Of a stretch of 54,002 nucleotides of DNA, positions 928-38,684 are shown one piece after another. The notes beneath the pieces are model-generated. The model saw only the letters and a list, made by a program, of their open reading frames with translations, had not been told where the DNA came from and did no database searches. A program made the position numbers and the translations under genes. Positions within the stretch are counted from its first letter, which is position 1. Every line of letters starts with the position of its first letter. This DNA is from Prorocentrum cordatum (lineage: Eukaryota), in the NCBI GenBank assembly GCA_963575745.1, contig CAUYUJ010000275.1:62001-116002 (forward strand), given 5' to 3'.

Positions 928-1002
928 GAGGAGGAGGAGGAGGAGGAGGAGGAGGAGGAGGAGGAGGAGGAGGAGGAGGAGGAGGAGGAGGAGGAGGAGG
1001 AG
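928..1002. repeat. (GAG)n microsatellite within a purine-rich tract (~820-1240)
   Basis: Uninterrupted GAG run; source of the poly-E/S/P/L ORFs in the track. Confidence 0.95.
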
Positions 1003-1477
1003 GGGGAGCCGATCTGTGAGGATCCACAGGAAGGACCCTCTCCAGAATCGGCGCTTTCGTTGGCAACACCCCAGTCGACATGCAGGTGCGGAACATGAAG
1101 GTGCGTGCAGTCGGGATGCGAGGGACGAGGATTGGGATGGGGAGGGATGATGATGGTGGTGGTGGTGATGATGAGGATGATGTTGATAATGGGGATGACA
1201 CGGGAGCGGGAGAGAGGGATGGATGAAAGAGGAATACACAAACCTACGCAGATACTAATAAGAATCCGCCGGCCCCCTTGTGGGGGCACCAGGCTGTAGG
1301 CGCGGGTTCGCAGTTTCCTGTGCCAGTTGTAGCTTGTAGTTTCCAGTGTTACAGTTCTGCTTCTTGCTGGTTACTGTAACTAGTTGATTGACAGCGCGAG
1401 GGGGGGGGAGGCCCAAACCAGATTTTTAGCGTCTCCTGGGCGTGTTGTCTGAATTGCTGGGGGAGTTCGAAATCAAC

Positions 1478-2212
1478 ACCCCTCACGCAGATCCGCGGGG
1501 TCAGGGTCCAATAACACAGGGGATTTGCCACATTTCTGAAATTCGGTGCCACCCCTCACGCAGATCCGCGGGGTCAGGGTCCAAAAACACAGGGGATTTG
1601 CCACATTTCTGAAATTCGGTGCCACCCCTCACGCAGATCCGCGGGGTCAGGGTCCAAAAACACAGGGGATTTGCCACATTTCTGAAATTCGGTGCCACCC
1701 CTCACGCAGATCTGCGGGGTCAGGGTCCAAAAACACATGGGATTTGCCACATTTCTGAAATTCGGTGCCACCCCTCACGCAGATCCGCGGGGTCAGGGTC
1801 CAAAAACATAAGGGATTTGCTACATTTCTGAAATTCGGTGCCACCCCTCACGCAGATCCGCGGGGTCAGGGTCCAAAAACACAAGCCACATTTCTGAAAT
1901 TCGGTGCCACCCCTCACGCAGATCCGCGGGGTCAGGGTCCAAAAACACAATGGATTTGCCACATTTCTGAAATTCGGTGCCACCCCTCACGCAGATCCGC
2001 GGGGTCAGGGTTCAAAAACACATGGGATTTGCCACATTTCTGAAATTCGGTGCCACCCCTCACGCAGATCCGCGGGGTCAGGGTCCAAAAACACAGGGGA
2101 TTTGCCACATTCTGAAATTCGGCGCCACCCCTTACACAGATCCGCGGGGTCAGGGTCCAAAAACACAGGGGATTTGGCACATTTCTGAAATTCGGTGCCA
2201 CCCTTCACGCAC
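1478..2212. repeat. 73-bp tandem repeat, ~10 near-identical copies
   Basis: Unit ACCCCTCACGCAGATCCGCGGGGTCAGGGTCCAAAAACACAGGGGATTTGCCACATTTCTGAAATTCGGTGCC starts at 1478, 1551, 1624, 1697, 1770, 1843...; one copy has a 7-bp deletion. Confidence 0.97.
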
Positions 2213-2216
2213 ATCC

Positions 2217-2330
2217 ATCGCAAGGCGTGGTAACCCAAACTGCGAGAACTCCCTCGGCCCTTTAATCGCAAGGTGTGGTAACCAAGCCCGTAAACCATAC
2301 ACGTCTTACCAATCGCCAGGTGTGGTAACC
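2217..2330. repeat. Three 19-bp direct repeats ATCGCMAGGYGTGGTAACC with dissimilar 28-29 bp spacers
   Basis: Copies at 2217-2235, 2265-2283 and 2312-2330. Confidence 0.8.
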
Positions 2331-3771
2331 CCTCTTGTGATCAGTTGGTTTTGCTGATTGCGAATCGGCTTCGCATGAAGTTTCGATACTGCTTCACGAC
2401 AGCGCCAAGGCCTCATGACTTTGCTCTTCCATGGCCCATTCTCCGAGAGAGGGGGCCGGCGGCAGGGGGCGAAGCCCTTACGGATAATCGAGACCTCACG
2501 AGCTGGGTCCGAGTACATGGGGTTCATGAGCACGTCGTATCGCCGATGCATCGGCGACGTTGGCGTGGAGAGAATCGGGATCCACATCGGCTGGGCGCTC
2601 CGACAGGGAGAGAGAACCTCCACCCAGAGGGGCACGATCGAAGGCGAAGAGGGCGGGTACGCTGAGCTGTTTAATAAGCGTGGGGGGCCCGATCGCGCGA
2701 GTGTGCGGGGATGGGCTGTCCTTCGCAGGTCGTGGGGGCGGGGGGATCGCTCGAGGGGGTGGGCCCGGCGTGCGAAAGGGGGGGGCGGACTGAAACAGGC
2801 CGCCGGGCGGAGTGGCACAGGGAGTGTGCTGAAAGACGAAGCGAAGGTCTGCGGTGCCGGTGCTGAGCGGCACGCGAAAAGAGCAAGAGCGCAGCACAAA
2901 AATAAGATGCTGACGCGGAGTTCTCACTCTTGTAAAAAAGCATGCTTGATGATCGCGCTGGCCGATGCTCATTGTTTTTCAGTGGAGCGGCGCTCGTCGA
3001 CGCTCGCACCTGGTCCTTTAGTTGGGGTTGGCGCTGGACCTTCAAGTGCCCCCCAAGACTGCCACGACGGCTTCCGCCTGAGGCCTCCTCACGACTTAGC
3101 CAGGAATCGCGCTCTCGCTCGAGGCTTCCTGGCACTTTACGCGGGGATCGCGCTCTTGCCTGCAATCTCCTTGTGCACCATCTGCGCACGAACGGCGCGG
3201 TCTCGCCGCCCAGGCGTCGTGCTCTCGCCCTGGGAGCTTGCTCAGGAACTGCATCCCCGCCAGAGAACCGCCCCCCCGAGCCTCCGGGCCCTCCGAAGCC
3301 CCCCTGTTCTGTTTCCAGGAAGTGCATCGGCTACACGCAAGGAGTGGCCCTGGGTAAGAGTGACCCTTCTGATGCGCGGCTTTTTTGGACCGCGGGGGGG
3401 CCAAAAACAAGCGCGCGAGCCGCTGCTACCGCTTCTCTTTCGGCCATCTGGGGGCCCATCTGTGCCCGCACCAAAGGTCACTCTGGCGAAAGGGCACTCT
3501 TACGCCTAGTCGAATCCAGGGAGTCCCGTAACGAACTCCAAAACGGCGCCCTCGCGAGGAACATCCTCAGAGACTTCTCTGCAAATTGTGCAAGAGTCGC
3601 ACGTTCGCCGGGACCTCCCGAGCAGCTCACGCAGGGATGGCGCCCTCTCGCCACTCGAGAATCGTGCCCTCGCCTCCTCACAGGGTCCTCAGGCCGTTCC
3701 ATGAGATCCTCCTCCTCCTCCTCCGCCTCCTTCTCCCGCCTCCCCCTTACGCTCTGTGGGAGGCCTCGCCA

Positions 3772-3900
3772 CTGCTCGGACGTTCATTCCCCGTGCATGT
3801 TTCGATGTCGTGCGCTTATTTTTTCGCAAGACGGGCCAAGATGCTCGTCGATGATCCCCGCCGAGAAAAACGCACACGTCCGAGCGATGCCAAGAGCCAT
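3772..3900 (+). repeat. Dispersed repeat, homologous to 9190-9320
   Basis: Both read ctcggacgt.catt...tcgtgcg...tcgcaa...gatgctc.tcga...cgccgagaaaaa...gcac..gtccga.cgatgcca. Confidence 0.7.
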
Positions 3901-4384
3901 GAGTGCGGCACCCGCTAGCCCGCGGGGATCACGGGGCTCAGGTGAAGACGCGTCTGTGCCACCGAACGAACGTTCTGTCCGAAGGCCATTCTGGGCGCGA
4001 AAGGGTCAGTCAATCACGCCTTGGACGATCCCACCCAGTGCGGCGTCTGCCCGCACTCGGCGATCATGAGGCTCTCAAGAGCTACCGCGCGCGGGAAATC
4101 TGCGTGAGAATGAGCGGGCGTGAGGGAGTGATAGCACGAGTGTGCATGAATGAGTATGGGCCTGGCTACCTGTGGGTTAAGTGCCAGTGATCACGAGCTG
4201 GCGTCATCAGCATCCGAAAGATGGTGAGCACGATGTTGAGTGCGTGAGTGTGAGCGGGTGCGAGCGTGATAAAGGAAAGGTGCATACAGGAAGAAGGGAT
4301 GCGGAGGGAGGAACGGGGAAGGAGGCGCACTCATTATGGCAAGAACTCGATGCTTACAGTGTCTGGAAGTATTCGCACATATAA

Positions 4385-4500
4385 CCTCCTCCTCCTCCTC
4401 CTCCTCCTCCTCCTCATTCTCCTCCTCCTCCTCCTCGCATACATAACCCTCCTCCTCCTCCTCCTCCTCCTCCTCCTCATTCTCCTCGTCCCCCTCGTCC
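4385..4500. repeat. (CCT)n microsatellite in a short local duplication
   Basis: Two TAACC(C)-(CCT)n-CATTCTCCTC units. Confidence 0.85.
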
Positions 4501-4571
4501 TCCTTCTCTGGTTGCGGCCTGCCACCGGCGGCGGCGCCACAGGCACACTAGGACTCCGCGCGTAATCTCTG

Positions 4572-4945
4572 GTACTGCCCGAAGAGAAGGTCGTAGTGCC
4601 CTGGCCCCTCAGCTGGAACTCCCTGGAAGCGGGCGCAGGAGCCGTCTTTAGGGAAAGGTCGAGCTTGGAGAGGACCAGTGCGGTGACATAATGTGGATGA
4701 CACGAGTATCACGAAGCAGCAGGTGCTACCAGGGCACGCGATGAGAGTAAGGCTGTGCCCCATTGGCTCCATCCACCCACAATGCGGCTTTTGCAGGCCA
4801 CTTTCCAGTTTTCCGTGTCGTGCCCCCGCGAAGGAATCCGAGCACGGCCACCGAGAGGATCGGTTATGCTGCGGGCGCGTGGCCGCGATCACAACCACGA
4901 AGGACCCCCAGCCGCCAGCCCGCCGTCGCCCTGGAGCTCCTGCAT
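4572..4945 (-). pseudogene. Possible degraded OTU-like cysteine protease fragment
   Basis: Minus strand MQELQGDG (D ~4927) is in frame, through one stop, with SQWG (W ~4762). A 1-nt frameshift then gives SLTLIAC...GPGHYDLLF (H ~4598). Order and spacing recall OTU GDGNC...WGD.TL.A...HYD; the catalytic Cys is absent. Confidence 0.3.
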
Positions 4946-5130
4946 GGTTCGAGTACGGTCACGGCGCTGCCAGAAGGAACGTTCAATCCGGAACGAAGGG
5001 GCTGCTCTGGCCACGGCGAGCGGCAGCCACGAATTGGCTCCCCGGCCTAGACCGAAGGAGACCGGCCCGAAAACCCGAGCCCCTCCTGAGCCCAAAGCGG
5101 TCCTCGTGTCAGCGCCTCGGCTTTGAGCTT

Positions 5131-5215
5131 TCGGAGCTCCGCGCGGACCTCTTGAATCCGCGCTGGACCCCCCTCCCCGGCGCGCCATGGCCCCGGCGCC
5201 GCAAGGGGGGGGTCC
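5131..5215 (+). repeat. Dispersed repeat GAGCTCCGCGCGGA...CGCTGG...GGCGCGC; also at 37582-37650 (+) and ~35815-35882 (-)
   Basis: Three alignable copies. Confidence 0.7.
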
Positions 5216-5580
5216 CGGCGCAGCCGCGAGAGATCCGCGCGGACCTCCAACAGCTCCTGTTTGCGCTGTGCTCTTTTGTTTTTTCCCCGGGGAGTGAGAG
5301 GAGGCGAGCGGGCATCCCAGCGACGGCCTCCACAAGCGGCGCGGAAGAAGACAGGCGGTGCGGAACATGCGGCAGCTCTCGTTTGTGTTTTTGCTGCTCA
5401 AGTGTGAAGAAAACGAGGCCCGAAGGAGGCCACAAGAGGTCCCCAAGCGGCCCCCAAGAGGCCTCAGAACTGCCTCCAAGAGATCCCCGAGATGCCTTCC
5501 ACGAGATCCCAACAAACATCCACTAGGCTTCATACCCACAGCCCAGGAACGTTGGCGGGACTTGCCGTAGGCAGCTGGAT

Positions 5581-7123
5581 CCGCCGCCCCCTGTTGCTTG
5601 CAAAAGGGGTGCCTGGCGTGCTGAACCCTCTCAGTTTTGGTATTGGCTCTTTTCCAAAAGAACTCCCCCTGGGCCTCCGGCGCGTTCCGCCGGCCACCCA
5701 GAAAGATTGCCAAGGACCGCAATCCGGGAACAAATCCTCCAAAATGGTCCAAGATGGCCACGTTGGCCCTAGACGGCCTCCAAGATGGTCCAAGATGGCC
5801 TCCAAGTCCGCCCAAGATGGTCCTTGACGGCCTCCAAGACGGCCCAAGAGAGTCCAAGATACATCCAAGGTCGCCCGAGAAGCCTCCAAGACGGCCCAAC
5901 ACGACCCAAGAAGCCTCCAAGAGGCCCTCCAGAAGGGTCCGAAGAGGCCAATATCCTTGATTTTCCATACGTTTTGAAGGATTTGGGCATGTGCTTCTTC
6001 TCGGCATTCCGACGGCTCAAGACGGCCCAAGAGGCCCCAAATATCGCCCCAAGATCGCCCAAGAGGGCTCCAAGAGGGCCCCTTGATGGCACAAGAGGCC
6101 TCCAAGACGGCCCCAAGAGGGCCCGAAGACGGCCCAAGAGACCTCCAAGACGCCCAAGATGGCCTCCACGACGGCCCCGAAGCGCCCCAAGAGGACCCCG
6201 AGTCGGTTCAGAGCGGCCCCCAAGACGGCTCCCGACGGCGTCAGACGGGCCAGGAGCCCACCAAGATGGCCGAAGTTGGCTAGAAGCTGGCCCAAGACGG
6301 CCCAAGAGGCCTCCAGAAATGTCCAAAAACACACTTTCCGCGTAGGTTTTTGAAGGATTTAGACATTTGCTTCTTTTCGGCCTTCCGACGGCCCGATACG
6401 GCCCAAGAGCCCCCAAAGATCGCCCAAAGGTCGCCCAAGATGCCTCCAAGATGGCCCCAGAAGGCCCAAGAAGCCCCCAAGACAGCCCCAAGAGGCCCCC
6501 AAGACGGCCCAGGAGGCTTTGAAGACGCCCAAGATGGCCTTCAAAACGGCCCTGGAGCATTCCAAGGACCCCAAGTCGGCTCAGAGAGGCCCCCCAAACG
6601 GCTTCCGACGGCGTCGGACGGGCCAGGGGCCCACCAAGACGGCCGAAGATGGCACTAAGATGGCCCAAGACGGCCCAAGAGGCCTCCAAGAGGGCCTCCA
6701 GGAAGGCCCGAAAAGGCCCAAATCATTTATTTCCAATAAGTTTTTGAAGGATTGTGGCATTTGCTTGTTTTCGGCCTTCCGACGGCCCGAGACGGCCAAA
6801 GTGCCCCCAAAGATCGCCCAAGAGGCCCAAGACGGCGCCAACATGCCCCCAAGAAGGCCCAAGAGGCCTCAAAGACGCTCAAGATGGCATCCAAGACGGC
6901 CCAAGAGCCCTCCAAGACGTTCTCCAAGAAGGCCCGAAAGGGTCAAAATGGCCTCCAGGCGGCCACGATGACCTTCAAGATGCCCACGTGTTCCCCGGGC
7001 TCTCCCAACCGATTCGGGGAACACATGGTCCGATAGCTTGGCAGGTCTGGCCTCACCGTTCGGCCACATAGGCGCTTCCAAAAAGGCAGGGGGCGGCGAT
7101 GATTCGCCGTAGGCGTCTTCGAT
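5581..7123 (+). mobile_element. Non-autonomous Helitron2/Helentron-like element (copy B) with CCAAG-rich body
   Basis: 5' CCGCCGCCCCCTG (5581-5593) matches 3' CAGGGGGCGGCGA (7087-7099) as an inverted repeat at 12/13. Then hairpin CGCC-GTA-GGCG (7105-7115) and TCTTCGAT. It directly abuts an orphan 3' end (GGCGG...TGCC-GTA-GGCA-GCTGGAT, 5554-5580). Confidence 0.6.
5738..6985 (+). repeat. Degenerate (GGCCCAAGA)-type minisatellite body
   Basis: Dozens of CCAAGA/GGCCC motifs with a ~400-bp higher-order recurrence (ttttgaaggatt...ttcggc.ttccgacggc at ~5972, 6347, 6742). Confidence 0.9.
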
Positions 7124-7145
7124 AAACAACTGTAACGGAAAACTG

Positions 7146-7253
7146 AGATCGGTTCAAGTGTGATTAAAATTGTGTTCGGTTCAACTGTTCTGTAGCATAG
7201 TTTTTGTTATCACACTGGATCAGAATTTGTTCAATCACACTTGCACCGAATCT
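7146..7253. mobile_element. AT-rich MITE-like element
   Basis: TCGGTTCAAGTGTGATTAA (7149-7167) inverted against TCAATCACACTTGCACCGA (7231-7249), 17/19; no TSD found. Confidence 0.6.
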
Positions 7254-7801
7254 AGCGCCACTTTTGAAACGGGCACTGTTCTTTAGGTTGGTTCACTTCT
7301 CCGAATGGTGCAATCCGCTGGCGCCCTCCCGCAAAGCCCACGGACATGTTCGCCGCACGTGAGACACGCCCAAAGCCCTGCCGAGTAAGGGTTGGACAGA
7401 ACCCCCTTTCGGGAGCGGCCAAGAGGGGGGTGTCCAAGAGGGGGGGTGCAAATCATGACCAGCGGCATGTGCGCGGCCCAGCGGGGGGGCCAGGGACGTA
7501 ATGAAATAAGAAGAGGCGCCGTGAAATCTGGGGAAAACTCATGGCCCGCGCCATGATATCCCCTCCTGCCCTAGTCATCCCCCCCCTCTTTTCCGCCCCC
7601 GACCCTTTAGTGAGACACCCCTTCACAGAAACCGCCAAGGACCACATGAGGCGACGGGCCCAGGGCCCGCGAGCAGCGCGGCCGCACCGCCCTCGCGAGA
7701 GTTCGAACCGGGCAGTCCGCGGATCGACTTGGCAGGGGGGAAGCTCTGTCGGCCTCCGACGAAACGACGCCGACGACCTCGATCTTGGACCTTCCACCAT
7801 A

Positions 7802-7979
7802 CAGTCGGGGCGTTGACCTAAGGAACCCTAAATAAGGAACGAGGCCCCTTTTTGTTCCACAAGTTAAACTTCGATTTCCCATCGAAAACATAAGGAAACC
7901 CTGAGGCAAGCTGCGAAACAATCAAGGAACACGGAGCCCCTCCCCAACGAAAAGGGTTCCTTCTTCAGGGCCCCGACTG
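7802..7979. mobile_element. Tc1/mariner-type MITE (178 bp) with TA target-site duplication
   Basis: TA|CAGTCGGGGC...AAGGAACC ... GGTTCCTT...GCCCCGACTG|TA. CAGT termini with TA flanks are typical of Tc1/mariner. Confidence 0.8.
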
Positions 7980-8014
7980 TACGGCCAAGAACTTTTTTCG
8001 TAGCGGCGTGGTTG

Positions 8015-8068
8015 TTGGCGTGTCGCGCCGAAGCATGGTGGGCCAGAACCGGCGGCGCGACACGCCAA
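8015..8068. repeat. Hairpin with perfect 16-bp stem and 22-nt loop; second copy at 8534-8585
   Basis: TTGGCGTGTCGCGCCG / CGGCGCGACACGCCAA; loop AAGCRTGGTGGGCCAGAACCGG is shared by both copies. Confidence 0.85.
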
Positions 8069-8735
8069 GCCAGAGACCCTGACCGTCTCGGCCTGCGACA
8101 TGACGACGCCGACCAGACCCGATCTTCGACTCTGCACCTGATATCTTCGCCTCATGGGCCGATGGGGCCCCACCGGAGCGAGCCCAAATGCAAAGCTCGG
8201 GGAGACGTGAGACTCGGGTTCGGGAGACTCGGGTCAGCCTGACGGGGCCGCCAGGAACATGGAGACCCAGTCTGACATTTGATGCGAACTCCCGCTGCAA
8301 ACACCCCACGAAAACTGGACCGTCAAAACTCAGGCTGTGCCCGTCGAAAAGCATCGGCAAACCCGAGTTCCGCCGATCTCGAGTCTTACGGTCAGGAGCT
8401 ATTGCATAGCGTGTCACGGCGGCGGCCCTGGCCACACGCCTTGCCTTGCAAGCGGATCGCTTGTCGCTTCGCTCCGCGGGCAGGGAGGCTTGGAAAGGCA
8501 GGGGACGTTGAAGCCTGAGGACTGGGAGATGGATAGCGTGTCGTGCCGAAGCGTGGTGGGCCAGAACCGGCGGAGCGACACGCTACAGTCACGCTGCTGC
8601 AGTCAAGATCGCTAGATGGCGGATTCTGGAAACCCTGAAACCCTGAAACGTTGTCGCCTCTGGGCTGCGCATCTGTTTTCCGCCGCCTTCAATCGGCCTT
8701 CCGCCGGCTTCCGCCAGCGGAGGCCTTGTTTTACT

Positions 8736-8818
8736 TCCGCCGCCCTTCCGCCGCCTCCCGCCGAGGAAGAGGTGGCACCTCCTTCGATCCTCGAAGGCGA
8801 GGCCATTCCTGGAACGCC
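8736..8818 (+). repeat. Direct repeat, second copy at ~9842-9928
   Basis: ccgccgcccttccgccgcct..cgccgaggaaga...ccttcga.cctcgaaggcgag...ctggaacgcc in both. Confidence 0.8.
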
Positions 8819-11800
8819 CCAGAAGAGCCCTGAAGCCCATTTTTGAAAGCATCGGCAAGCCCGAGTCTCACGCTTCCCCCATAGAAAAATCGCCCTCCTC
8901 GCGCTCTTCTGGCAGATGGCCCGCAGCTCCGGCACCGAGTCCTTCCACGTGCGCCCCTTGCAGAAGACGCCGAGGGCCTGGAAGCCCCAGCGGCCGCCTC
9001 GGCGTGGCCGCGCCCGGGGCGCGGGGGGGGCGGCGGGGAGGCGAGGAGCGCCACCTGCGCGTCCGAGCGCGCCGAGGCAGCCAGCGAGGAGGGCCGGGGG
9101 CAAGCGGGCGAGAGAGGCGCGCAGAGCGCGGCGAGCGGAGCAGCTCGGCGAGGGAGAGCACGCGAAGCTGGACGCAGGCCCTGGCCATCGCTCGGACGTC
9201 CATTTCCTGTGTTTTCTTCGGTTTCGTGCGTGGTTTTGTCGCAAAATGGTCGAGGATGCTCCTCGAAGGTCCTCGCCGAGAAAAAAATGCACAAGTCCGA
9301 TCGATGCCAGGAGGCCACGGATACGGAGGACAAGGCCAGCAGCCGGCCTCGTCCTGAGCAGGGGGGCGGCCTGGGGCCTCGCGAGTGGGGAGGAGTGGGG
9401 AGGATGAGGCGGGAGGGGAGCCGCCGCTCCCAAGCCCCTCCCCCTCCTGTCCTCCTCCTCCTCCTCCTCCTCCTCCTCCTCCTTGCCCTCCTCCTCCTCC
9501 TCCTCCTCCTCCTCCTCCTTGCTCTCCGCCCGCTCCAGCACAAGCCATGTCGGACCTCCGCGGGCGGTCTCTCCGCCGGCGCCCGACGCCCCTCCCCGCG
9601 CCGCCCCCCCCGGCGCGCGAAGTGCGCCAGGGGGATGCGGGGCGGGTGTCGGGCGCCTGCTGAGGAGCTGTCTGCGGCGCCTGCTGAGGAGCCGCGTGCG
9701 TTTCCAATCCTCCGCGACTGCTTCCCACAACTCCGACGGTGTGACTTGGTCGGTTCTGGGAGCCCTGGGACCGAAAAATATTGCGATCTCTCTGGGGCGC
9801 ATGTTTTACCCAGCCGGACTTCCGCCGTCCTTCGGCCACCCTCCGCCGCCCTTCCGCCGCCTTTCCGCCGAGGAAGAAGAGATGATAACGCCTTCGACCC
9901 TCGAAGGCGAGACCCTTTCTGGAACGCCTTGTTCGCACCGTGGGCCCCTGGATGCTGTGACCCCTTCCTTGGGGCCAGCTTTTCATCCCGAGTCGTTCTT
10001 TGGCAGTCCGTGGGGCCCGATGAGGGCCCCCAGAGGCCGAACCTTTTCCAAAAAAATTGGCCTTGATATATTTGGCACAGCAATTAGGTGGGGGTTCTGC
10101 TCGCCCGGGATCTCCTGGTTCACGGAACAGGCGGGCGATCGCAAGCCCGCTCTCGCCGAGGCCGTCCCGCAGCACGTATCTCGCGAGCTCGGAGCCCTCC
10201 TGCCCGGGTGCGCTGGGCGGAGCGTCATCGTGTGGACTGCCCCCTTCACCTCTCGAGTTATGGTGTCTCAGGGTGTTCGTGTACCGCTTGATGGGGGCAC
10301 GAGGTTGGGCTGGGGCCCTGCTGGGGAAATACGGAGGGAGGCAGGGGAAGGAGGAAGAATACGAGCCATCTGAGCAGGCACAGGAACATACCCTCCTGAA
10401 CGACTTCCCCCACAGGACATCTGATCGCTGTCCGAAGTGCCAAAGATGTCTCGCCATGAAGCAAGCGGTGACCTCTGGGCTTCTGTGGCTTTCCCAAAGG
10501 CGGGCCTCGAACTTCTGGAAAACTTACCTGTGGCCTTCACAGGCTTCGGGCACGAGCTGCGTAGGCCTTCTCTCTGGCGCACGGCCTGGCATTTGGATTG
10601 CCCCTCTCCTGGTCCATGATGCGGCAGAAGGCGTTGGACACCTGGGCCAATATCATGGGAGGCGCTCTTCGACTCAAGAATCTGCAGCTCGTCTGCAATT
10701 TAAAGCATGGCGCGCCCCACTGCTAGTGTCCCTGTCCGCCCACTCCTTCGGTGTTGTGAGCATCCTCTCGCTGCCCTCCCAATCTCAGCAGCATATCCAA
10801 GTCAGATCAACGCTTGCAATCATGTTTTCGGGGATCGGGCTGAAGATCACAATTCAGAAGATTGCTTTGGTAGCTTGGCCCTTCAGCGCTTTAACTCGTC
10901 ACTATTTTGTCCAAGCCCAATCGCAAGTTCAAGCCCACGCCACGACCAGTCCTGTGACCACTACGACGGCAGCATCTGGCGAGTCTATTCTGACACATGG
11001 CCAGATGATCTGAATGCAACCCTGATTCCACGTGTCACAAGCCACCATGACTCATGGGGATCGAATGTCGATCGCGCGATCACATCGATCCGAATGCTCG
11101 GTCGGGAACAGAATCAGGGCAAAGCGTCATCACACGATCACGGGACCGGATCGTTGTGATGAGCTCGCAACTCTGCATTGCACTTGTGATTGGTACCACT
11201 TTTTACACTGGAGAAGGCCTTCGAAAGGCCGTGTGGATCAACAGCAAATCAATCACGATGACGTGGGGCACGCATGCAACAGATCTACGACGATGTCGCA
11301 ACATGGGCATCCAAGGGGAGCAATCTCTTGGGAGGCCGTGCTCCATGTTCCTCAGGTCCCCGATCGCGCGCGAAGCTGCGCGTTCGCCACGCTGGTGGAA
11401 TGGGGCCCGCAAGCTCAGAACTCCGACGCCATATGCTTTTTGCTCGCAACGCGCACCTCTGGAGGCCCACGCCCCTTCCCCTGGGCCAACCTCTCATCCC
11501 GGGCCGCACGGGCCCCGGTGAGGACCCCCAGAGGCCGAAGCCAGCCAAAGGGGGAGGAGCTGCGGGATTCTCCGTGGCCAGCGGAAGAAAACGATAGAAC
11601 ATCTGACCAATGACTGCACAACGAGCTCCTCGAGTACGATGTTCCATCCACCCATCTCGTCACAAACCTCCCGCCGTGATTTTCGCTGCGAGGGCAGCGG
11701 GGGAGGCCTGTGCCCCAAGTCCTTCCTGGGCCGCCCCGCCGCGGTGAGCCCCGGCGTCGCCCGACGCCCCGGGCGTGCCCTGGCGCCCAGATTTGGCACG

Positions 11801-12336
11801 CCCGCAGTGGGCACGGTCAAGCTGCTGCAGTAAGGAACTCCAGATGTCGCCGCGCCGTTTGACGCCGCCACCACGGCAAACCCACGGCAAGTCCTGCGTC
11901 CCGCGCCCAAGCAAACGAAACTGACACCGCGGCGAACGAACGGCAAACCCACCGCGTCCGAGGCGGCGTTAGCCCTGGTGGCCGCGGGGCCCTCCCCTAG
12001 ACGCCAGGCCGTGCGTCGGAACAAACGGCGCGGCGACAAATGAGGAACGACACCCTTTTTGGCACCAAACGAGCCTGGGTGCACGACAAGAGCTGGAGGA
12101 ACAAGCACGCAACAAAAACGAGCCGCTTCCGAACGCAAAACGGTCATTCATTTCAGCGCCTTGACTGTACGGAAAAAGTGGGTACGATGCCCAACAGCAC
12201 GTGTTGCCCAAAACCGGCCGCGGCCGCTGTTTTGCATGCGCACTTGTGTCTCAAACGGGGAGCGCCCGCGGCGACACGGACAGCGAACTGCTGTTGGTCT
12301 TCGCCCCCATGCTTTATGTACTCCGGATGGCGTAAT

Positions 12337-13133
12337 CCGCTGACCCCCGCTTGCCGGGGGTGAGAAGGCGTGTGAGACATTTGGCTGTCCCCCTCCCCCT
12401 TCCCCCCTCCCCTGGGGTCCAAAATGCTATTCTAGGGGAGGGGGAGGGCGAGCTAGTCAACGCACCCCTGGGGCATCTGGAGCCCCCATGAAGCCCCAAG
12501 GCAGCCCAACAGGGCCCAGACAGAGCGCCAGGACCGTCGAAGAGAACGTCATGACGGCCCAGGGCAGCCCCTGGAAGATCCAAGATGGCTTCAAGATGGC
12601 CCACGAGGCCCCCAAGGCATCGCCGAGAGGACCCCAAGAGGCCCAAATCATCCCATTCCATTTGGGAAAAAAACATGTTTAGCATATTCGCACTTTACGT
12701 CTTGACAGCGAACACGATGGCCCAAGTGGCTCCCCAAATCGTCCGAATATGGCACGTGATGCCCCCAAGAAGGCCCTAAGACGGCCTAATAGGGCCCAAA
12801 GACAGCTACAGGGGCCCCCCAAGAGGGCTCCAAGAAAACCCAAGAGGGGGAATACGCGCCGACGAGCCTTTCCCACCGAGATGGCCCCTCGATCCCCCCA
12901 GAGGCCCCCGAGGGCCCTCCAAGAGGCCCCAAGAGGCTTCCCAGACGCCCCCCAAGAAGCCCCCCAGAGGCCCCCATGAGGCCCCCCCAAGATATTCCAA
13001 GAGGCCACAGGGAGGCATCAGAGGAGACCGTCAGATTCATCCAGGAGGCTCCGGCTCCAGGATTTGACTTCCGCGATCGTCTGACACACTCACTCCTTGT
13101 GGAGGTCGGCGGAATGGCGCAAGCCACTTGAAT
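12337..13133 (+). mobile_element. Non-autonomous Helitron2/Helentron-like element (copy C), CCAAG-rich body
   Basis: 5' CCGCTGACCCCCGC vs 3' GTGGAGGTCGGCGG (13099-13112), 11/14 inverted; hairpin TGGC-GCAA-GCCA (13115-13126), then CTTGAAT. Confidence 0.55.
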
Positions 13134-14415
13134 CCGCCCGCCCACCGGGCTGATGGGCGTGTGGGATTCAAATATGAGAGCTCCTGGCAATGCTTTCGTC
13201 CCCCCCCTAACCCTCCCCGGAAGCGTGCGCCGTTCCGCCGCCGGGCTGCGCCCAGGCCCCTTGTCAGTCCCCAAGACGCCTCCGAGACGGCTTCCAAGAC
13301 GAGCTCGCTTTTCAGATCGTTCTGAAGACGCCTCCGGGGCGCTTTGTGGCTCTATTTCGGCCCCGTCGGGGTCCCTGCTTGGCCTCCAGAATCCGCTCCC
13401 GGGGCCCTCGAGAGCGCCTTTGTGGCTCGCCCTCGTCGAAAAGCTGGCATGTCAAAAAGTATCGCAAATACTACGTCTGGTTGTTTCACGACTTGCGCTT
13501 CCCCGGGGGTAGCCTGGACGCTTCGTACAACTGCCTTCCCGGCTCGTCTGGGATATTTTTCATCTTTCAAATTTGGACGCTGTTTTTGGGCGCACTCCGG
13601 GGTCCACTTGAGAAGATTCGGGGGCCCACTTGGGCCCCAAAACGAACCCAAAACAGCCTAGAACAGGACCGGTTTTAACCGGAAGACGGACGTGACGGGC
13701 AAAGAGGCCGCCACGAAGGCCCCAAGACGACCCAAGTGGGCCCCCAAACAGCCCAAGAGGGCCCCAAGACGGCCCAAGAGGGCTCAAAGATCGCCCCAAG
13801 TCGGCCCAAGAGGCCGCCAAAAAGGCCCCAACATTGCCCAAGAGGGTCCCAAGGCGGCCCAAGAGGCCCCTGGGACGGCCCAAGAGGGGCCCAACAGGAG
13901 GAGCCCGAACAAACTTTTCGAGCCCTCCGTCCCAAGAGGCCCCACAGGAGGCCCCAAGAGCCCAAAGCAACCCCAAGAGGAAGCCCGAAGACGCCCCCGA
14001 CAGGCCCAGAAGAGGTCCAGATGGGTCCCTGCTTGGCTCCTTTTAGGCAGCGTTCGGGCCGTTTCTGGTTGATCTTGGGCAGTGTTCGGGCTATTTCTGG
14101 CCTCCTGCTGTGGATGATAAACGAGGGCCCCAAGAGCCCACGTCCACATCACTGATCCGTTGGTACTGACGACGGGACGGCGACCAAACGGCAAATCTAC
14201 GATCGATCAGCCACGCGGCATGCCTGAGCCTGACGGGCTCTGGGTTTTTTTGGAACGAAAATGGAGCGCAGGCAAAAAACAACTAACCACACCTGCAAAG
14301 GGGTCTTGTCTAATTTTCTGCATGTGCTCATGCCGTACAATAACTAGTGGAGCCGTCTTCGTCTCGTCCGGCGAGAACTGGAGTGGGCGGGCGGTGAACG
14401 CGAAGCGTCTTGAAT
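13134..14415 (+). mobile_element. Non-autonomous Helitron2/Helentron-like element (copy D)
   Basis: 5' CCGCCCGCCCAC is the exact reverse complement of GTGGGCGGGCGG (14383-14394); hairpin ACGC-GAA-GCGT (14398-14408), then CTTGAAT. CCAAG-rich block at ~13715-14030. Confidence 0.62.
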
Positions 14416-15496
14416 TCGCCAGCCCAACGGGCCAAGGGCGTGCTAAGATCTCGGGTAACTGGTCAACAATATTCTAGTTCGCGCGCGCGGGGCCGCCCCT
14501 GGGGGTCCCCCGACGAAAAGTACCCCGGGACACCCTCGGGACACCCCCGCGACACTCGGATCAGAGCTGCCAGACCGGGCAATTTTCCGACACCCCTCAC
14601 GAGAATCGTGGCCTCCGAGGGGAGGGGCGCAATCGACTAACCCCCCCTCCTGACCCAAGAGGTCCCCAAGACTGCCCAAGAGGCCCCGAGACGCCCAAAG
14701 AGCGCTCCAAGACGCCGATGATGACCCCAAGACGGCCCAAGACTCACAAGAGGGCCCGAGAGGCCAACATCATCAATTTTACGATGGTTTTGGAAGGATG
14801 TTGGCCTTGTCGCTTTTTCGGCCATCCGATGCTCCAAGACGGCCCAAGAGGCCCCCAAGAGCGCCCCAAGACGAGCCAAGAGGCTTCCAAGAGGGCCCCA
14901 AGAGGGCCCAAGAGGGCCCCGAGACGGTCCAAGAGGCGCCCAAGACGGCCCAAGACGGCCCCAAGACGGCCCCAAGAGGGGACCACGAATGGAAAACTCA
15001 AGCCTTCCGCCCCAAGAGGGCCCCAGGAGGAGGCCCTGAGAGGCCCCCAAGAGGCCCCCAAGAGGCCCCAAGATGCCGCCAAGAGGCCCCAAGAGGCCCC
15101 AGGAGGCCCCCAGGACGCCAAAAAGAGGGCCCAAGAGTCCCAAAAGTTCAAAAATGCCTCCCAGGCGCCCCCGAATGGCTTCTCAAAAGACCCCAAGAGG
15201 CCTCCCAAAGAAGCATCTTGACGACGACCCTGTTTGGCCCCAAGAGCAACACAAGATGCCAACGAGAGGCTTCCAGCTCCGCCCCTTCCCCTTCCTCCTC
15301 CTCCTCCTCCTCCTCCTCCTCCTCCTCCTACTTATCTTCATCCTCTTCCTCTCCTTCTCATCCTCTCCTCCTCCTCCCCTCCCCTTCCACATCCTCATCT
15401 TCCTCCTCCTCGGCGGCGCTACAATGGCCCCGGGCCCACGGCGAAGCAGTAGCGATCATGCAACATGGGCCGGCGGAGTGAGCGAAGCGATTGAAT
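14416..15496 (+). mobile_element. Non-autonomous Helitron2/Helentron-like element (copy E)
   Basis: 5' TCGCCAGCCCA vs 3' TGGGCCGGCGG (15466-15476), 9/11 inverted; GC-GAA-GC (15482-15488), then GATTGAAT. CCAAG-rich block at ~14650-15210. Confidence 0.55.
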
Positions 15497-34154: not shown

Positions 34155-36239
34155 GGGGGGCAGGAGGGCGGCCGCAAAGGGAGGGAGGGCGGTGAGGGCG
34201 GCGCACTCGGGCCTTGAATGCCCAGGGCTACGCTCACCAACAGAGCCATGCAACATCTACCCATCGGTGGGAAGAAGTGGGCAGAGACATGGCGACGAGC
34301 GGCGCTGGAAGCAAACTTTGGATCTCCGCCGGGGCCCATGAAGGCGACGGAAGAGGGACCACCACTCGAGCCCTGAAGTAGCAAGGCGCCCAGAGCACAT
34401 CGGGACCTGGGGATCAAGAGAAGCCGACTCTCAACGACTGATGGGCACACGAGCCCTGTGGCAGGTCGGGGCGAGGGAGGGTCTGCCACCCTTCGGGGCA
34501 GGCCTGCAGTGCACTTGGCCTCGTCGCTGGTGTCGGAGGTGCCTCAGCTGAGGAGCCGCACCTGACCGTTCGACCCCATGCAAATAACATTCGGGATGAT
34601 GATCTGCGATGAAGGAGCTACCTGGATTGGCGGCGAGCCTGGGGGGGGAGCGAGAGGGGATGGCCTTCTCAAAGGCTCGGGAGGCCTTCCGAGCCTTCTG
34701 AAAAATATTCGAAGCCTTCCCCGAAGACAAAGACATCTTGTCAGAAGGCGCGAGGGCTTCTGAAAAGCCCCCCGCTTTCTGAGAAAACCTACCCACTCTC
34801 AGTTTCCCCCCGGCACGCCGCCGACTGAATACGGGGGTGCGACATCATCGTGGACACTGTGCGCATCATCGAATCGAGCTGGCGGAGGCGTGGTGCCGAG
34901 CGACGTCGCACTGGTCTCGTGCGACAGCTTGTGCTGCGTTGGGGCCCAAAACGCCAGCTGCAAGAGCGGGGACATGGGAGGCATCATCGAGGAGGGCGCG
35001 CATACGAACCTCTGGGGTCAAGCAGCTGAGGACCGAGATACCCCACGAGGGCGTCGCCCACCTGCCCCCATGGGAAAGAGCCGCGCGCGCAGGATTCCAG
35101 GGCGATGCAGTCTGAGGACTCTCCCCCCGAGGGGGCGCGAGCGGGCCGACCCCGGGGCGGGAAGCACCACATGGGAGCGCAAGCGCGGGTCGGGCCGTCG
35201 CGGCCACCGCGGTGACCAACGATACCGTGGCGCCCCCGACGCTCGCCACGCAGAGCTACGGGATACTGGCTACTCAAGAACGGTGTGCGGTCAGATGATG
35301 TGACCTTGTGAAGAGCTTCGGGTGCGACCGACACGCCCCTGTCTGCGAGGGATGCCCGAGTAACGGATCCAGCGCGGCAGTGCTGCGCATGTATGCCGCG
35401 TTCGGCGAAGGCCACACATCGGGCCAGCCGGTGTGAGAAGAGCACCGTGGCAGGAAGCGTGCTAGCGTGGGCGGCGCTGAGCACCAGTTCCGCTGGAAGG
35501 TCAGAAGTCTTCTCGTCGAAGAGGGCCTGGCTGGGGCGGTGCTGCTCGATGGTTTCCGTTCGAACTCTGGGCTCAGAGGTCGCCCCCCCAAAGCGCCCCG
35601 GCCGCTCAGCCCACGCGGTCCTCCTCCTCCTCCTTCTCCTCCTCCTCCTCCTCCTCCTTCGTTCCGTCATCCCTCCTCGGTGCTTCCTCCTCTCTACTGT
35701 TTCCTCCTTGCGACGCTAGAAGAACAACAATGATATAAGCAAGACATATTTCGCAGCTCCGTGCTGATATTCTGGGTCGGTGCTGACCCCACGCCGGCGC
35801 CGCCTCTGGCGCAGCCTCTGGCGCGCCACGCGCGCCAAGGAGGGGGATCCAGCGCCGATCAAAGAAACCCGCGCGGAGCTCATAACAATTTATGTCGTTG
35901 CACTTTTTCCTGCTGCGAGGTGCTGGAGCACAGTCGCTGTCCTGGGCGAACAGCACGACGGAGACGTCGAGGTCCACGTCCCCCGCCTGGCGGCAAGTGC
36001 GGCCGGCCGCAGCCGGATTCCGCGAGGATGCTGCCGTCGCGGCGCTGTTCTGCGGCTGGTGCACGCCATCGTGACTTCTCCTGCTCCTCCCTCCTCCTCC
36101 TCCTCCTGCTCCTCCTCCACCTCCTCGCCCCCCTCCTCCTCCTCCTCCTCCTCCTCCTCCTCCTCCTCCTCCTCCTCCTCCTCCTCCTCCTCCTACCCCT
36201 CGTCCTCGCCCCCCTCCTCCTCGTCCTCCTCCATCCCTT

Positions 36240-36370
36240 TTCCTTGTAAACAACTCCTGCCCTCCACACCCTGAGACGTGTCGGTAAGGAGGGCCGGGCG
36301 TTTCGCCTGAGACGATCTCGCCATTCATGCCCATGAAGCTGGAACTTTGCAACAGTTTCACAGGTTGAGG
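36240..36370 (+). repeat. Dispersed repeat following a (CCT)n tract, homologous to ~46409-46540
   Basis: cctt.taaa.aact...cacacc...gggccgggcgtttcgcctgagac...atg.cc.tga.gct..aac.tt.gcaac.gtttc.ca in both. Confidence 0.8.
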
Positions 36371-38043
36371 GCGGGGGGGCGGGGCTTGTCAAAAGGCTCG
36401 GACGGCCTTCAGGCTTCTGGGAAGCTCTCGGAGCCTTATCCAAAGGAAGGGAGGGCTTCTCTGAAGGCCAGAAGGCTTCTGAGTAGCCCCGCTGCCTTGT
36501 GTGAAGGCTGGCACCCCCCTGCCTTCCCCCCAGGCGGGCGCGTCGACGATAGTTGTGCTATTTTGTGGAGCCAAGATGAAGAGCCTTTCCACCGCATTCA
36601 GGACGGCCTGCACAACAATTTTGAGAAGGCCCACAGGGGTTCGACCACATGACTCGACATCTGCGTCACTGGGATCTCCCAGGCCTCCCCGCCCCCCAAG
36701 CGCGGTGACGCATGTGTTAGGTATTACAACTTGGTTTTTGTAAAAAAAAAAAAAAAAAGAGAGGGGGCCATAAGGATGCCTCCAGGGGTCGTGGCTTCAG
36801 CGCGGCAAGATTGCGTGGGATTGAGTGAGCGTCTTGGGCCCACTGGAGCCTGATTTGACACGATCAGATTGCCCATTGAGGTCCAGAATAAACTTCTAAT
36901 GGCGGACGTCATGGAAACGCAAATCCAAAGCCCCTTTCGGGGTGTGGCTTGGATGGTTCGAAGGTGGGACGAGGGCGAGAGCGGCGACGGCGACAGCTTC
37001 CACAAGTGCCTCGACGAGGCCGACGAGCGCATCGACGAGGACGCCGAAATTCCGACGAAGAAAAGGGCGGCGACGGCGAATACAACGAGACGGTCTCCAC
37101 GGAATTTCCGTCGGACCATGACCTCCTGCACCACCCCGACACCGACGGTGATTGGGATTCGCCTTGGAAGAGCGATGGGCAAGCCGATGATGACGGCATC
37201 CGATACTTCGCAGACGTCGAATGGCTTTCCGCCGACGAGGCCATGCTCGCTATAATGCTTCGGAACGTAAGGGGATAGCGCCGCTTGGTTGCTCAGAAGC
37301 CACCAGACACTGATATCCCTCAAGGCACCGCTGATTGACTACAGACAGTGGCGGCCACCAACCACTGCTACCCCGAATACTGTCCACTCTGCTGAGCTGT
37401 GCGGTGGCGGTCGCAAACATAGTTCCATGGCCACCGTGCCCCTGGCTCGACCCACCCAAACAGTGACGCTGAGAGCCCACAGAGCGTGTGGCACACCTCT
37501 GACGCGACGGCGCGGCCTTTGGTTTTTCCGCCAACGCGTGACCCGCTCATGGAGGAACAAGCAACGGCATAATCATCTACATTCGGAGCTCCGCGCGGAT
37601 CTGTTGATCATCGCTGGCCCACACTCCCTGGCGCGCGGAGCGCGCCAGGGGCGGCGCCGGAGGCACCGCCAGGGAGGGGCCAGTGCAGGTCCAAGACATT
37701 CGTGCGGAACTCCCAAACCTTTTTGCTTATATGCCGCGGTTTGTTCCTCTGGCTCTGCCTGGAAGAGGCGCCGTTGCTTGGCCCCCACGCCCAACATCTG
37801 CCAGGCGAGCGACGAAAAAAGAAGAAGCTATTTCGCGAGACGACGTCATGAACGACCTCACGCCGCGTCTCACGCTGGCCGCCAGCGCGGCACGCTGCCT
37901 AGAGACGGGGGCGCATACGCGCGACCGTACGCGGGCAACTTACGCGCGAATGTCGTCGAATACGGACTCGTTGTTCTGCGTCGCCCACATGTTTTCGACA
38001 GTGCGCGCCAGTGCCCGCGCCGCCGCGCATAGGCGCCCGCGCC

Positions 38044-38191: not shown

Positions 38192-38243
<52 letters not shown>

Positions 38244-38545: not shown

Positions 38546-38589
<44 letters not shown>

Positions 38590-38651: not shown

Positions 38652-38684
<33 letters not shown>

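What the first reader, a model, noticed from the sequence alone, without database searches (positions are those of the whole stretch)
1266..15496. Family of five non-coding elements, each with its own matched asymmetric terminal inverted repeat pair
Seen: five segments (1266-2485, 5581-7123, 12337-13133, 13134-14415, 14416-15496) share one layout: AT, then YCGC-n8 with a local hairpin, then a body, then n8-GGCGR, a mini-hairpin, ~7 nt, and AT. The variable part of the terminal repeat differs between elements, yet each 5' end matches its own 3' end (12/12, 12/13, 11/14, 12/12, 9/11). The ends therefore co-vary. No TSDs were seen, and the bodies differ (73-bp array vs CCAAG minisatellite). Known: asymmetric TIRs, a 3' stem-loop and no TSD characterise Helitron2/Helentron elements and their non-autonomous derivatives such as DINE-1. 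Inference: a diverse rolling-circle-type family whose ends are recognised by pairing rather than by fixed sequence. I do not know of a description of it in dinoflagellates but cannot confirm novelty.
Basis: partly seen in the sequence, partly recalled or inferred. Interest (0 to 1): 0.8.

Follow-up and report, generated by a model that had tools for sequence, protein, structure and literature searches.

The report
Small Helitron2-type transposons, matched ends
The five segments are real non-coding mobile-element copies built like Helitron2-type rolling-circle transposons, each with its own matching pair of end sequences, so this is a new family of a known kind rather than a new kind of element.

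Summary
All five segments sit at the stated coordinates. Each has AT, a 5' arm (N-C-G-S plus about 8 nt) that also folds back locally, a repeat-rich body, the complementary 3' arm, a mini-hairpin, a 7-8 nt tail and AT. A sixth 3' end (5551-5580) abuts element 2.

Own ends match better than swapped ends. With five elements, own pairing is the best of 120 permutations. With four metagenome relatives added, it is the unique best of 362,880 (97 of 108 against a mean of 76).

The layout matches the published definition of Helitron2 (Bao and Jurka 2013) point by point. That paper already reports compensatory changes in the arms. A Helitron2-like RepHel from a dinoflagellate is also in print (PMC8788227).

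No Rep/helicase, DDE or RT gene was found in the window or in the related loci, so the enzyme link is inferred.

Local features are loops of the very stable G-N-A mini-hairpin type, AT at both junctions, and new copies landing exactly at the 3' end of resident copies.

Earlier notes of this scan report the same kind of element elsewhere in this genome.

Verdict: new member of a known kind, moderate interest.

The parts
1266..2485 (+). Element E1 (1220 bp). 5' arm 1266-1278; local 5' hairpin partner at about 1282-1287; 73-bp tandem array 1477-2216; 3' arm 2450-2462; mini-hairpin GGGC-gaa-GCCC 2467-2477; tail 2478-2485. AT at 1264-1265 and at 2484-2485.
   Evidence: (0 mismatches of 12)
5551..5580 (+). 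3' end of a further element (E0): GGCGG, spacer, mini-hairpin TGCC-gta-GGCA 5563-5573, tail GCTGGAT. It abuts the first base of E2. A CCAAG-type repeat lies upstream at 5413-5508. Its 5' end was not found.
5581..7123 (+). Element E2 (1543 bp). 5' arm 5581-5593; body of about three higher-order units of CCAAG-type minisatellite; 3' arm 7087-7099; mini-hairpin CGCC-gta-GGCG 7105-7115; tail 7116-7123.
   Evidence: loose end at 7123
12337..13133 (+). Element E3 (797 bp). 5' arm 12337-12348; 3' arm 13101-13112 (10 of 12); hairpin TGGC-gcaa-GCCA 13115-13126; tail CTTGAAT 13127-13133. First member of a head-to-tail trio.
13134..14415 (+). Element E4 (1282 bp). 5' arm 13134-13145; 3' arm 14383-14394 (12 of 12); hairpin ACGC-gaa-GCGT 14398-14408; tail CTTGAAT 14409-14415. 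Both ends are fixed by the neighbouring elements, not by complementarity.
14416..15496 (+). Element E5 (1081 bp). 5' arm 14416-14426 (starts TCGC); 3' arm 15465-15476 (9 of 11-12); weak hairpin GC-gaa-GC 15482-15488; tail GATTGAAT 15489-15496. The most decayed pair of ends.
35847..37598 (-). Candidate further element on the minus strand. It has an AT+CCGCGCGGAGCT start, an exact 12-nt complement, and then 22 nt ending in GGAT. There is no G-N-A mini-hairpin. It could be a chance pair, because the arm is partly palindromic and 0.62 such pairs are expected per window.

Best explanation
The five segments, plus a sixth 3' end, are non-autonomous copies of Helitron2-type (HLE2) rolling-circle transposons, comparable to HINE/DINE-1 elements.

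Anatomy of each copy:
- A left end whose first 12-13 nt (the 5' ATIR) can pair either with nucleotides just downstream, forming a 5' hairpin, or with the 3' ATIR.
- A 3' ATIR lying 20-25 nt before the right end.
- A very stable DNA mini-hairpin directly after the 3' ATIR, then a 7-8 nt tail ending in AT.

Inferred mechanism, taken from what is known or proposed for Helitrons:
1. A RepHel transposase encoded elsewhere nicks one strand at the left junction.
2. It unwinds 5' to 3'.
3. When the 3' arm becomes single-stranded, the displaced 5' arm pairs with it. Together with the mini-hairpin, this marks the place of the second cut.
4. The strand is then inserted at an A/T junction.

The right junction of a resident copy (hairpin, tail, AT) is itself such a cut site. 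New copies therefore land exactly there, in the same orientation, and build head-to-tail piles such as E0|E2 and E3|E4|E5.

Shown here: the anatomy, the co-variation of the arms, the stem compensation, the exact abutment, and the recurrence of the layout in unrelated environmental contigs.

Inferred: the enzyme, the single-strand intermediate, the role of pairing, and the choice of target.
For: (1) Point-by-point fit to the published Helitron2 definition (PMC3627910, passages read):
- ATIR of 8-15 bp. Here 11-13 bp.
- 5' ATIR 0-2 bp from the end, forming a 5' hairpin. In one search the minimum-energy folds pair the arm with downstream bases in 5 of 5 elements.
- 3' ATIR about 20-30 bp from the end and just upstream of a hairpin. 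Here 20-25 nt in 9 of 9 elements.

(2) Co-variation of the arms:
- Own pairing is the best of 120 permutations for the five window elements.
- It is the unique best of 362,880 for nine elements: 97 of 108 against a mean of 76.0, sd 3.43.
- Eight of the 12 arm positions show two or three different Watson-Crick pair types.
- E4, E5, L021B and L021C have both ends fixed by neighbouring elements and still pair 12, 9, 12 and 13 of 14.

(3) The 3' hairpin:
- 5 of 6 window ends have a 4-bp stem, each of a different sequence, in a zone where random 20-nt stretches reach that in 10% of 20,000 trials.
- The loops are G-N-A closed by C-G, or GCGNNAGC. These are the forms described as extraordinarily stable DNA mini-hairpins (PMC13037366 and PMC3201870, abstracts only).

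(4) One orientation and exact abutment:
- 6 of 6 ends in 1-15.5 kb lie on the + strand.
- 3 of 6 window 3' ends are followed at once by a new 5' start.
- The same arrangement is seen in a four-element array in locus L021 and in L062 and L118.
- In run X1, 49 contigs run from E2's last base straight into letters whose first 14 equal E2's own 5' start.

(5) Bodies made of tandem repeats, as in HINE/DINE-1 (PMC4067079, passages read).

(6) A Helitron2-like RepHel exists in a dinoflagellate (PMC8788227, passage read).
Against: - No Rep, Pif1 helicase or remnant of one was found in the window or in the related loci scanned.
- Most HLE2 are reported to insert between T and T (PMC11417382). Here both junctions carry AT. 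That fits the FoHeli1/2 report (between TNAT and A, PMC5148889) or an A|T site, but a 2-bp AT target duplication is equally compatible.
- No empty site was seen. None of the 15 joints shown is a clean excision, and 7,437 joints were not shown.
- Nearest-neighbour DNA folding energies are not better than shuffles for most ends. The z-scores run from -2.62 to +2.74 over 11 ends.
- The 5' ends of L062 and L046 were located through their complementarity, which inflates the nine-element test. E3 and E5 pair only 10 and 9 of 12.
Confidence: 0.75

Rival explanations
1. A different single-strand (HUH-type or unknown) transposon that is not a Helitron relative but has converged on hairpins at both ends and end-pairing. 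An example would be an IS200/IS605-like or otherwise undescribed eukaryotic element.
For: - Hairpins at both ends.
- Strand-specific layout.
- Insertion beside a fixed short sequence (AT) that is repeated at the element's own right end.
- No enzyme identified.
Against: - Every structural feature, including the distances, is the one published for Helitron2 (PMC3627910).
- As I recall, IS200/IS605 ends are not complementary to each other.
- A dinoflagellate Helitron2-like RepHel is in print (PMC8788227).
Confidence: 0.12
2. A cut-and-paste TIR DNA transposon (MITE-like) that makes a 2-bp AT target-site duplication.
For: AT flanks every copy on both sides, and there is an inverted repeat of 11-13 bp.
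Against: - The 3' repeat lies 20-25 nt inside the end in 9 of 9 copies.
- The extra 3' segment (mini-hairpin plus tail) is conserved in one orientation only.
- All six ends in the cluster share one strand.
- New copies sit exactly at resident 3' ends, which a DDE enzyme acting on symmetric ends does not predict.
- No DDE domain was found.
Confidence: 0.06
3. Not mobile: a locally evolved satellite or higher-order repeat whose unit borders look alike because of unequal crossing-over.
For: - E3-E5 are tandem.
- E2-E5 share minisatellite bodies.
- Depth in public runs is very high over these bodies.
Against: - E1 has an unrelated body but the same ends.
- E1, E2 and E3 lie kilobases apart in different flanks.
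- Each unit has its own compensated arm pair.
- The same end architecture occurs in environmental contigs with quite different composition and flanks (L021, L046, L062).
Confidence: 0.04

Closest known systems
Helitron2 group / HLE2 (Bao and Jurka 2013, PMC3627910; HELIANO paper PMC11417382)
   Same: - Short asymmetric terminal inverted repeats.
- 5' arm at the very end, folding into a 5' hairpin.
- 3' arm 20-30 nt inside the end and directly upstream of a hairpin.
- Compensatory changes that keep the arms paired.
- Non-autonomous derivatives that share only the ends.
   Different: - Both junctions carry AT rather than the T|T usually reported.
- The 3' hairpin is a 2-4 bp mini-hairpin with a G-N-A loop.
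- Many different arm sequences sit side by side in one cluster.
- No RepHel partner was seen here.
HINE / DINE-1, non-autonomous Helentron derivatives (Thomas et al. 2014, PMC4067079)
   Same: - Non-coding.
- Subterminal inverted repeats.
- A short inverted repeat next to the 5' repeat.
- A 3' stem-loop.
- A central microsatellite or tandem-repeat block that can fill about half of the element.
- High copy number.
   Different: - In HINEs the 3' repeat lies about 38-60 bp from the end and the elements carry runs of T at their borders, inserting in TT.
- Here the distance is 20-25 nt and the borders are AT.
- Their partners carry an endonuclease domain. The partner here is unknown.
FoHeli1/FoHeli2 of Fusarium oxysporum (Chellapan et al. 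2016, PMC5148889)
   Same: - Helitron2-type ends with ATIR.
- Insertion reported between TNAT and A. This resembles the ...AAT | A context found here, where 10 of 12 non-abutting 3' flanks start with A.
- Joined ends and self-insertions are discussed.
   Different: Those are autonomous 6-7 kb fungal elements with a hairpin 30-40 bp from the 3' end. Tandem piles of different family members are not a feature reported there.
Helitron2-like element of Symbiodinium microadriaticum (Heringer and Kuhn 2021, PMC8788227)
   Same: A dinoflagellate host and a Helitron2-like structure without an endonuclease domain, according to the passage read.
   Different: Only the RepHel and a one-line structural remark are in the passage.

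Membership tests
Helitron2 / HLE2 | [quoted passage not shown] | tested here: met
   Arms of 11-13 nt pair 13, 12, 11, 12 and 9 of 14 in E1-E5. Own pairing beats all swapped pairings.
Helitron2 / HLE2 | 5' ATIR 0-2 bp from the 5' end and part of a 5' hairpin | tested here: met
   The arm starts 0-2 nt after the junction, depending on whether A, T or neither belongs to the element. Minimum-energy folds pair the arm with downstream bases in 5 of 5 elements, although z-scores are weak at -2.62 to +0.85.
Helitron2 / HLE2 | 3' ATIR about 20-30 bp from the 3' end, immediately upstream of a hairpin | tested here: met
   The distance is 20-25 nt in 9 of 9 elements. The hairpin starts 2-6 nt after the arm, and 5 of 6 window ends have a 4-bp stem.
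Helitron2 / HLE2 | Insertion without target duplication at a fixed dinucleotide (T|T in most reports; TNAT|A in FoHeli1/2) | tested here: inconclusive
   AT stands on both sides of every copy. An A|T site, insertion after AT, and a 2-bp duplication all give the same sequence. No empty site was found.
Helitron2 / HLE2 | Autonomous partner with the same termini encoding a RepHel (HUH Rep plus Pif1-like helicase) of the HLE2 clade | not testable with these tools
   No genome is held. No such domain was found in the window or in three related loci.
HINE / DINE-1 (Helentron derivatives) | Subterminal repeats 38-60 bp from the 3' end, T runs at the borders, TT target | tested here: not met
   The distance is 20-25 nt and the borders are AT. 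These elements work like HINEs but fit the Helitron2 spacing better.
Canonical Helitron (HLE1) | 5' TC, 3' CTRR, a single 3' hairpin, no terminal inverted repeat, A|T target | tested here: not met
   The ends are ...GAAT, GGAT or CGAT, with no CTRR. An inverted repeat and a 5' hairpin are present. Only the possible A|T site would agree.
TIR (DDE) transposon / MITE | Symmetric terminal inverted repeats reaching both ends, with a fixed-length target duplication | tested here: not met
   The 3' repeat is internal by 20-25 nt in 9 of 9 elements. No DDE domain was found.

The most novel reading that the evidence does not exclude
The private, co-varying arm pair of each element may work as an address. 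In head-to-tail piles of relatives, a transposase that starts at one left end would stop only where the displaced 5' arm finds its own complement. Arm diversification would then be selected to prevent read-through into neighbours. In parallel, the shared hairpin-tail-AT right junction would serve as the preferred landing site that builds the piles. That would make end choice in this Helitron2 lineage RNA-guide-like, by base pairing in cis, rather than by protein reading of a fixed sequence.
Probability: 0.25. Interest if true: 0.6.

Novelty: new member of a known kind. Interest (0 to 1): 0.35.

Why it matters
The finding adds a well-delimited family of non-autonomous Helitron2-type elements in a GC-rich protist genome. 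Earlier notes of this scan call that genome a dinoflagellate. I did not verify this.

The family offers an unusually clean natural series: one cluster holds several relatives with different but internally compensated arm pairs. This is the material needed to test the 2013 proposal that pairing of the two arms sets the end point of rolling-circle transposition.

The exact landing of new copies at resident 3' ends shows one way in which such elements build satellite-like arrays.

The finding does not change what is known about kinds of mobile elements.

Tried and rejected
- **Whole genome.** None is held, so no genome-wide census, empty-site search or RepHel search in the source organism was possible.
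- **Metagenome scan.** The 3' end pattern was too loose. By eye only 10 are relatives (L012, L015, L021, L046, L054, L062, L089, L093, L109, L118). L015 and L054 are the least sure. The other 109 look like chance hits in unrelated DNA.
- **Tighter pattern.** It gave 0 hits in viral contigs and 0 in genome contigs.
- **Sequencing runs.** No RNA holder is listed. Only four small-share holders (0.05-0.08) were found.
- **Laying the runs.**
  - Very high summed depth lies over the E1 array and the E2 and E5 bodies.
  - None of the 15 joints shown is a clean excision of an element, and 7,437 joints were not shown.
- **Folding energies.** No support from z-scores.
- **Partner searches.** No 5' partner for the sixth 3' end (E0) and no 3' partner for the hairpin-like start at 15497.
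- **BLAST of the elements against the loci.** Only L062 shares body repeats. One 53-nt match to L060 is probably forced by the search pattern.
- **Pfam scans.**
  - Window: 237 ORFs of 120 aa or more.
  - Elements: 50 of the 88 ORFs of 45-119 aa over the elements, plus 2 longer ORFs beside E1. The 38 ORFs lying in the arrays were left out.
  - Related loci: 76 of 112 ORFs, only those of L015, L054 and L021.
  - Result: no transposase, helicase or RT domain.
- **Rfam.** No match in the window.
- **Loose 5' signature regex.** Not specific: 17 hits against 6.6 expected.
- **Earlier findings by sequence.** Nothing.
- **Not attempted.** No structure or complex prediction, because there is no protein to test.


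Full report
**What is there**

The window is GC-rich (0.52-0.70 per kb) and repeat-rich eukaryote-like DNA. No whole genome is held for it.

- AT
- a 5' arm beginning N-C-G-S (CCGC in four, TCGC in one) followed by about 8 variable C/G-rich nucleotides
- a short fold-back partner just downstream
- a body
- the reverse complement of the arm
- 2-6 nt of spacer
- a mini-hairpin
- a 7-8 nt tail ending in AT

| Element | Length (bp) | Arm match | 3' arm ends before last base (nt) |
|---|---|---|---|
| E1 | 1220 | 12/12 (13/13 extended) | 23 |
| E2 | 1543 | 12/13 | 24 |
| E3 | 797 | 11/14 | 21 |
| E4 | 1282 | 12/12 | 21 |
| E5 | 1081 | 9/11 | 20 |

Bodies:
- E1 carries a 73-bp array (1477-2216, 10.2 copies, 94% matches).
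- E2-E5 share an 11/21/32-bp CCAAG-type minisatellite with interspersed spacers.

A scan for G-N-A hairpins preceded by GGCGR and followed by AT found a sixth 3' end at 5551-5580 (TGCC-gta-GGCA, tail GCTGGAT). It directly abuts the first base of E2. Its 5' end could not be found.

Three of the six 3' ends in the cluster (E0, E3, E4) are therefore followed at once by the next element's 5' start. All six lie on the + strand.

**Is it more than chance?**

I counted pairs that meet three conditions: an AT+YCGC start, its reverse complement with at most one mismatch of 12 within 8 kb, and AT 20-25 nt further on.
- The window has four such pairs.
- 100 dinucleotide-preserving shuffles give a mean of 0.62, a maximum of 3, and none reaching 4.
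- The fourth pair is a minus-strand candidate at 35847-37598. It lacks a G-N-A hairpin and may be one of the roughly 0.6 chance pairs expected.

On the eight variable arm positions the five elements score 8, 8, 6, 8 and 6 with their own partner.
- That is 36 of 40, the best of all 120 permutations. The mean is 27.6 and the best derangement is 29.
- Swapped pairs still match 4-6 of 8, because all arms are of one C/G-rich type. Five elements alone are weak evidence.

**Relatives from elsewhere**

My one metagenome scan used too loose a pattern.
- By eye only 10 are relatives. The rest look like chance hits in unrelated DNA.

The useful loci:
- **L062:** a complete 884-bp element with a CCAAG-type minisatellite. 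It abuts the 3' end of another element.
- **L046:** a complete 417-bp element inside a TTTGAAAG-type satellite.
- **L021:** a head-to-tail array of four elements, A|B|C|D, in one orientation. B and C use a CCGGCCACCCACC arm and a CGCC-gca-GGCG hairpin. D uses an ACGGCGCGCC arm and a 6-bp stem with a TCT loop.
- **L118:** another 3' end followed at once by a 5' start.

With E1-E5, L062, L046, L021B and L021D (L021C was dropped as a near-duplicate of B), I took the best ungapped match of each 12-nt 5' arm anywhere in the last 50 nt of each element.
- Own pairs score 97 of 108.
- Permutations give a mean of 76.0 with sd 3.43.
- Own pairing is the unique best of 362,880.
- The 3' arm ends 20-25 nt from the end in 9 of 9 elements.
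- Eight of the 12 arm positions carry two or three different Watson-Crick pair types, and C-G at positions 2-3 never varies.

Caveat: the 5' ends of L062 and L046 were located through complementarity. E4, E5, L021B and L021C have both ends fixed by their neighbours and still pair 12, 9, 12 and 13 of 14.

The 5' regions also share a GGCGTG(Y)NRGA-like motif 25-45 nt inside the end, in E2-E5, L062 and L046.

**The hairpins**

In the window, 5 of 6 ends have a perfect 4-bp stem in the 20-nt zone before the tail. The five stem sequences all differ: TGCC, GGGC, CGCC, TGGC and ACGC. Random 20-nt zones of the window reach a 4-bp stem in 9.96% of 20,000 draws.

Ends not selected by my search pattern (L021B, C, D and the upstream end in L062) have stems of 4, 4, 6 and 3 bp.

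The loops are GAA, GTA or GCA closed by C-G, or GCGCAAGC in E3. These are the GCGNAGC and GCGNNAGC forms described as extraordinarily stable DNA mini-hairpins, with stability depending on the closing pair (PMC13037366 and PMC3201870; I saw only the start of each abstract in the search listing).

The nearest-neighbour DNA folding tool does not single these ends out:
- 5' ends: z = -0.34, -2.62, -1.82, -1.30, +0.85
- 3' ends: z = -0.01, -1.77, -0.95, +0.47, +2.74, +0.13

The case for the hairpins therefore rests on position and stem compensation, not on computed energy.

**What it is**

The layout is the published definition of Helitron2. Bao and Jurka 2013 (PMC3627910, passages read) state the following:
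- The ATIRs are 8-15 bp.
- The 5' ATIR lies 0-2 bp from the end and pairs with downstream nucleotides to form a 5' hairpin.
- The 3' ATIR lies about 20-30 bp from the end, just upstream of a hairpin.
- Compensatory mutations between two related elements keep these features.
- Pairing of the two ATIRs may break the 5' hairpin and set the replication end point.

Other literature points:
- Non-autonomous derivatives with central tandem repeats are described for the allied Helentrons (HINE/DINE-1). There the 3' repeat lies 38-60 bp from the end and the target is TT (PMC4067079, passages read).
- HLE2 elements are generally said to insert between T and T (PMC11417382).
- FoHeli1/2 of Fusarium insert between TNAT and A (PMC5148889). 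This resembles the context here: the 5' flank ends in AAT in the 4 non-abutting cases I could read, and the 3' flank starts with A in 10 of 12 non-abutting cases.
- The same paper notes that tandem insertions of Helitrons are reported in several organisms.

Because AT stands on both sides of every copy, three readings give identical sequence and cannot be separated without knowing the chemistry:
- an A|T site, with the element running T...A
- insertion after AT
- a 2-bp duplication

**What could not be shown**

No Rep, Pif1 helicase, DDE transposase or reverse transcriptase domain was found in:
- the window's 237 stop-to-stop ORFs of 120 aa or more
- 50 of the 88 ORFs of 45-119 aa over the elements, plus 2 longer ORFs beside E1, 52 in all
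- 76 ORFs of L015, L054 and L021

Other negative results:
- A tighter end pattern has no match in the viral or prokaryote-genome collections.
- Rfam finds nothing in the window.
- Only small-share sequencing runs hold parts of the stretch.

Laying those runs gave three results:
- Very high summed depth lies over the E1 array and the E2 and E5 bodies.
- At position 7123 in run X1, 49 contigs continue from E2's last base into letters whose first 14 equal E2's own 5' start. This is a same-family head-to-tail junction. It could be a tandem copy or a joined-end form, and contigs cannot tell which.
- None of the 15 joints shown is a clean excision, and 7,437 were not shown.

The link to a RepHel enzyme is therefore inferred from the ends. 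It is backed by the printed report of a Helitron2-like RepHel element in the dinoflagellate Symbiodinium microadriaticum (PMC8788227, passage read).

My searches for 'Helitron' with 'dinoflagellate' (34 papers, 15 listed) and with 'Prorocentrum' (1 paper) showed no description of this family of ends.

**How it most likely works (inferred)**

1. A RepHel encoded elsewhere nicks at the left junction and unwinds 5' to 3'.
2. The displaced 5' arm, first held in its own hairpin, pairs with the 3' arm when that arm is exposed.
3. With the stable mini-hairpin 2-6 nt further on, this marks the second cut 7-8 nt beyond the hairpin.
4. The right junction of a resident copy is itself such a cut site. New copies therefore land exactly there in the same orientation, giving E0|E2, E3|E4|E5 and the L021 array.

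Recognition is not by pairing alone. The C-G at arm positions 2-3, the AT junctions, the loop type and the GGCGTG motif are all fixed.

**Standing**

This is a new family of a known kind. Earlier notes of this scan, on other pieces of the same genome, report the same kind of element: piles of Helitron2-like non-coding elements with co-varying arms, some with helicase remnants. I treated those notes as leads only. I did not see their sequences.

The more novel reading that remains open is that the private arm pair serves as an address. It would keep termination on the cognate end within piles of relatives.

Noticed in passing
window 5125-5256: A 62-nt inverted repeat (73% complementary). Within it, CTTGAAT is followed at 5158 by an ATIR-like start (CCGCGCTGGACC...) whose complement lies about 50 nt downstream. 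It looks like another head-to-tail junction with a long 5' hairpin, but its arm does not pair with the 3' end at 5545-5558.
   Followed up: partly
window 35847-37598 (minus strand): A candidate element with an exact 12-nt arm pair (CCGCGCGGAGCT), a 22-nt 3' tail ending in GGAT, and a CTC/GAG microsatellite in the body. It has no G-N-A mini-hairpin. It may be a chance pair (0.62 expected per window).
   Followed up: partly
window 15497-15545: Directly after E5, AATCCCTCTCCCCC folds back on a run of ten G and is followed by a GGCGCGTG motif, like a 5' end of the family without the N-C-G-S start. No 3' partner was found within 14 kb.
   Followed up: partly
window 16500-17100: A CCAAG-type minisatellite in the opposite orientation (read as CTTGG on the + strand), without recognisable element ends.
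   Followed up: no
window 7338-8004: The stretch right after E2 has very high summed contig depth in runs X1-X3 (48,348; 3,405; 18,036) but much less in X4 (3,488). It is probably another abundant repeat.
   Followed up: no
window 47025-49239: A long array of a 102-bp unit, with 203/206-bp higher-order periods, at about 77-88% matches.
   Followed up: no
window 52563-53298: 126-, 137- and 57-bp arrays built from 10-nt GGTGTCCCGY sub-repeats.
   Followed up: no
window 38193-38972: A 780-bp AC-rich microsatellite with strong strand skew (GC skew -0.48, AT skew +0.71 in that kb).
   Followed up: no
L021 (reverse strand) 1-3126: An environmental contig with four elements of the same architecture head-to-tail in one orientation. 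Two are sister copies and two have quite different arms and hairpins. The piling is therefore not peculiar to this genome.
   Followed up: yes
L046 (reverse strand) 600-1016: A 417-bp element of the family inserted in a TTTGAAAG/CTTTCAAA-type satellite, flanked by ...GAAAAT and TTGAAAG.
   Followed up: partly
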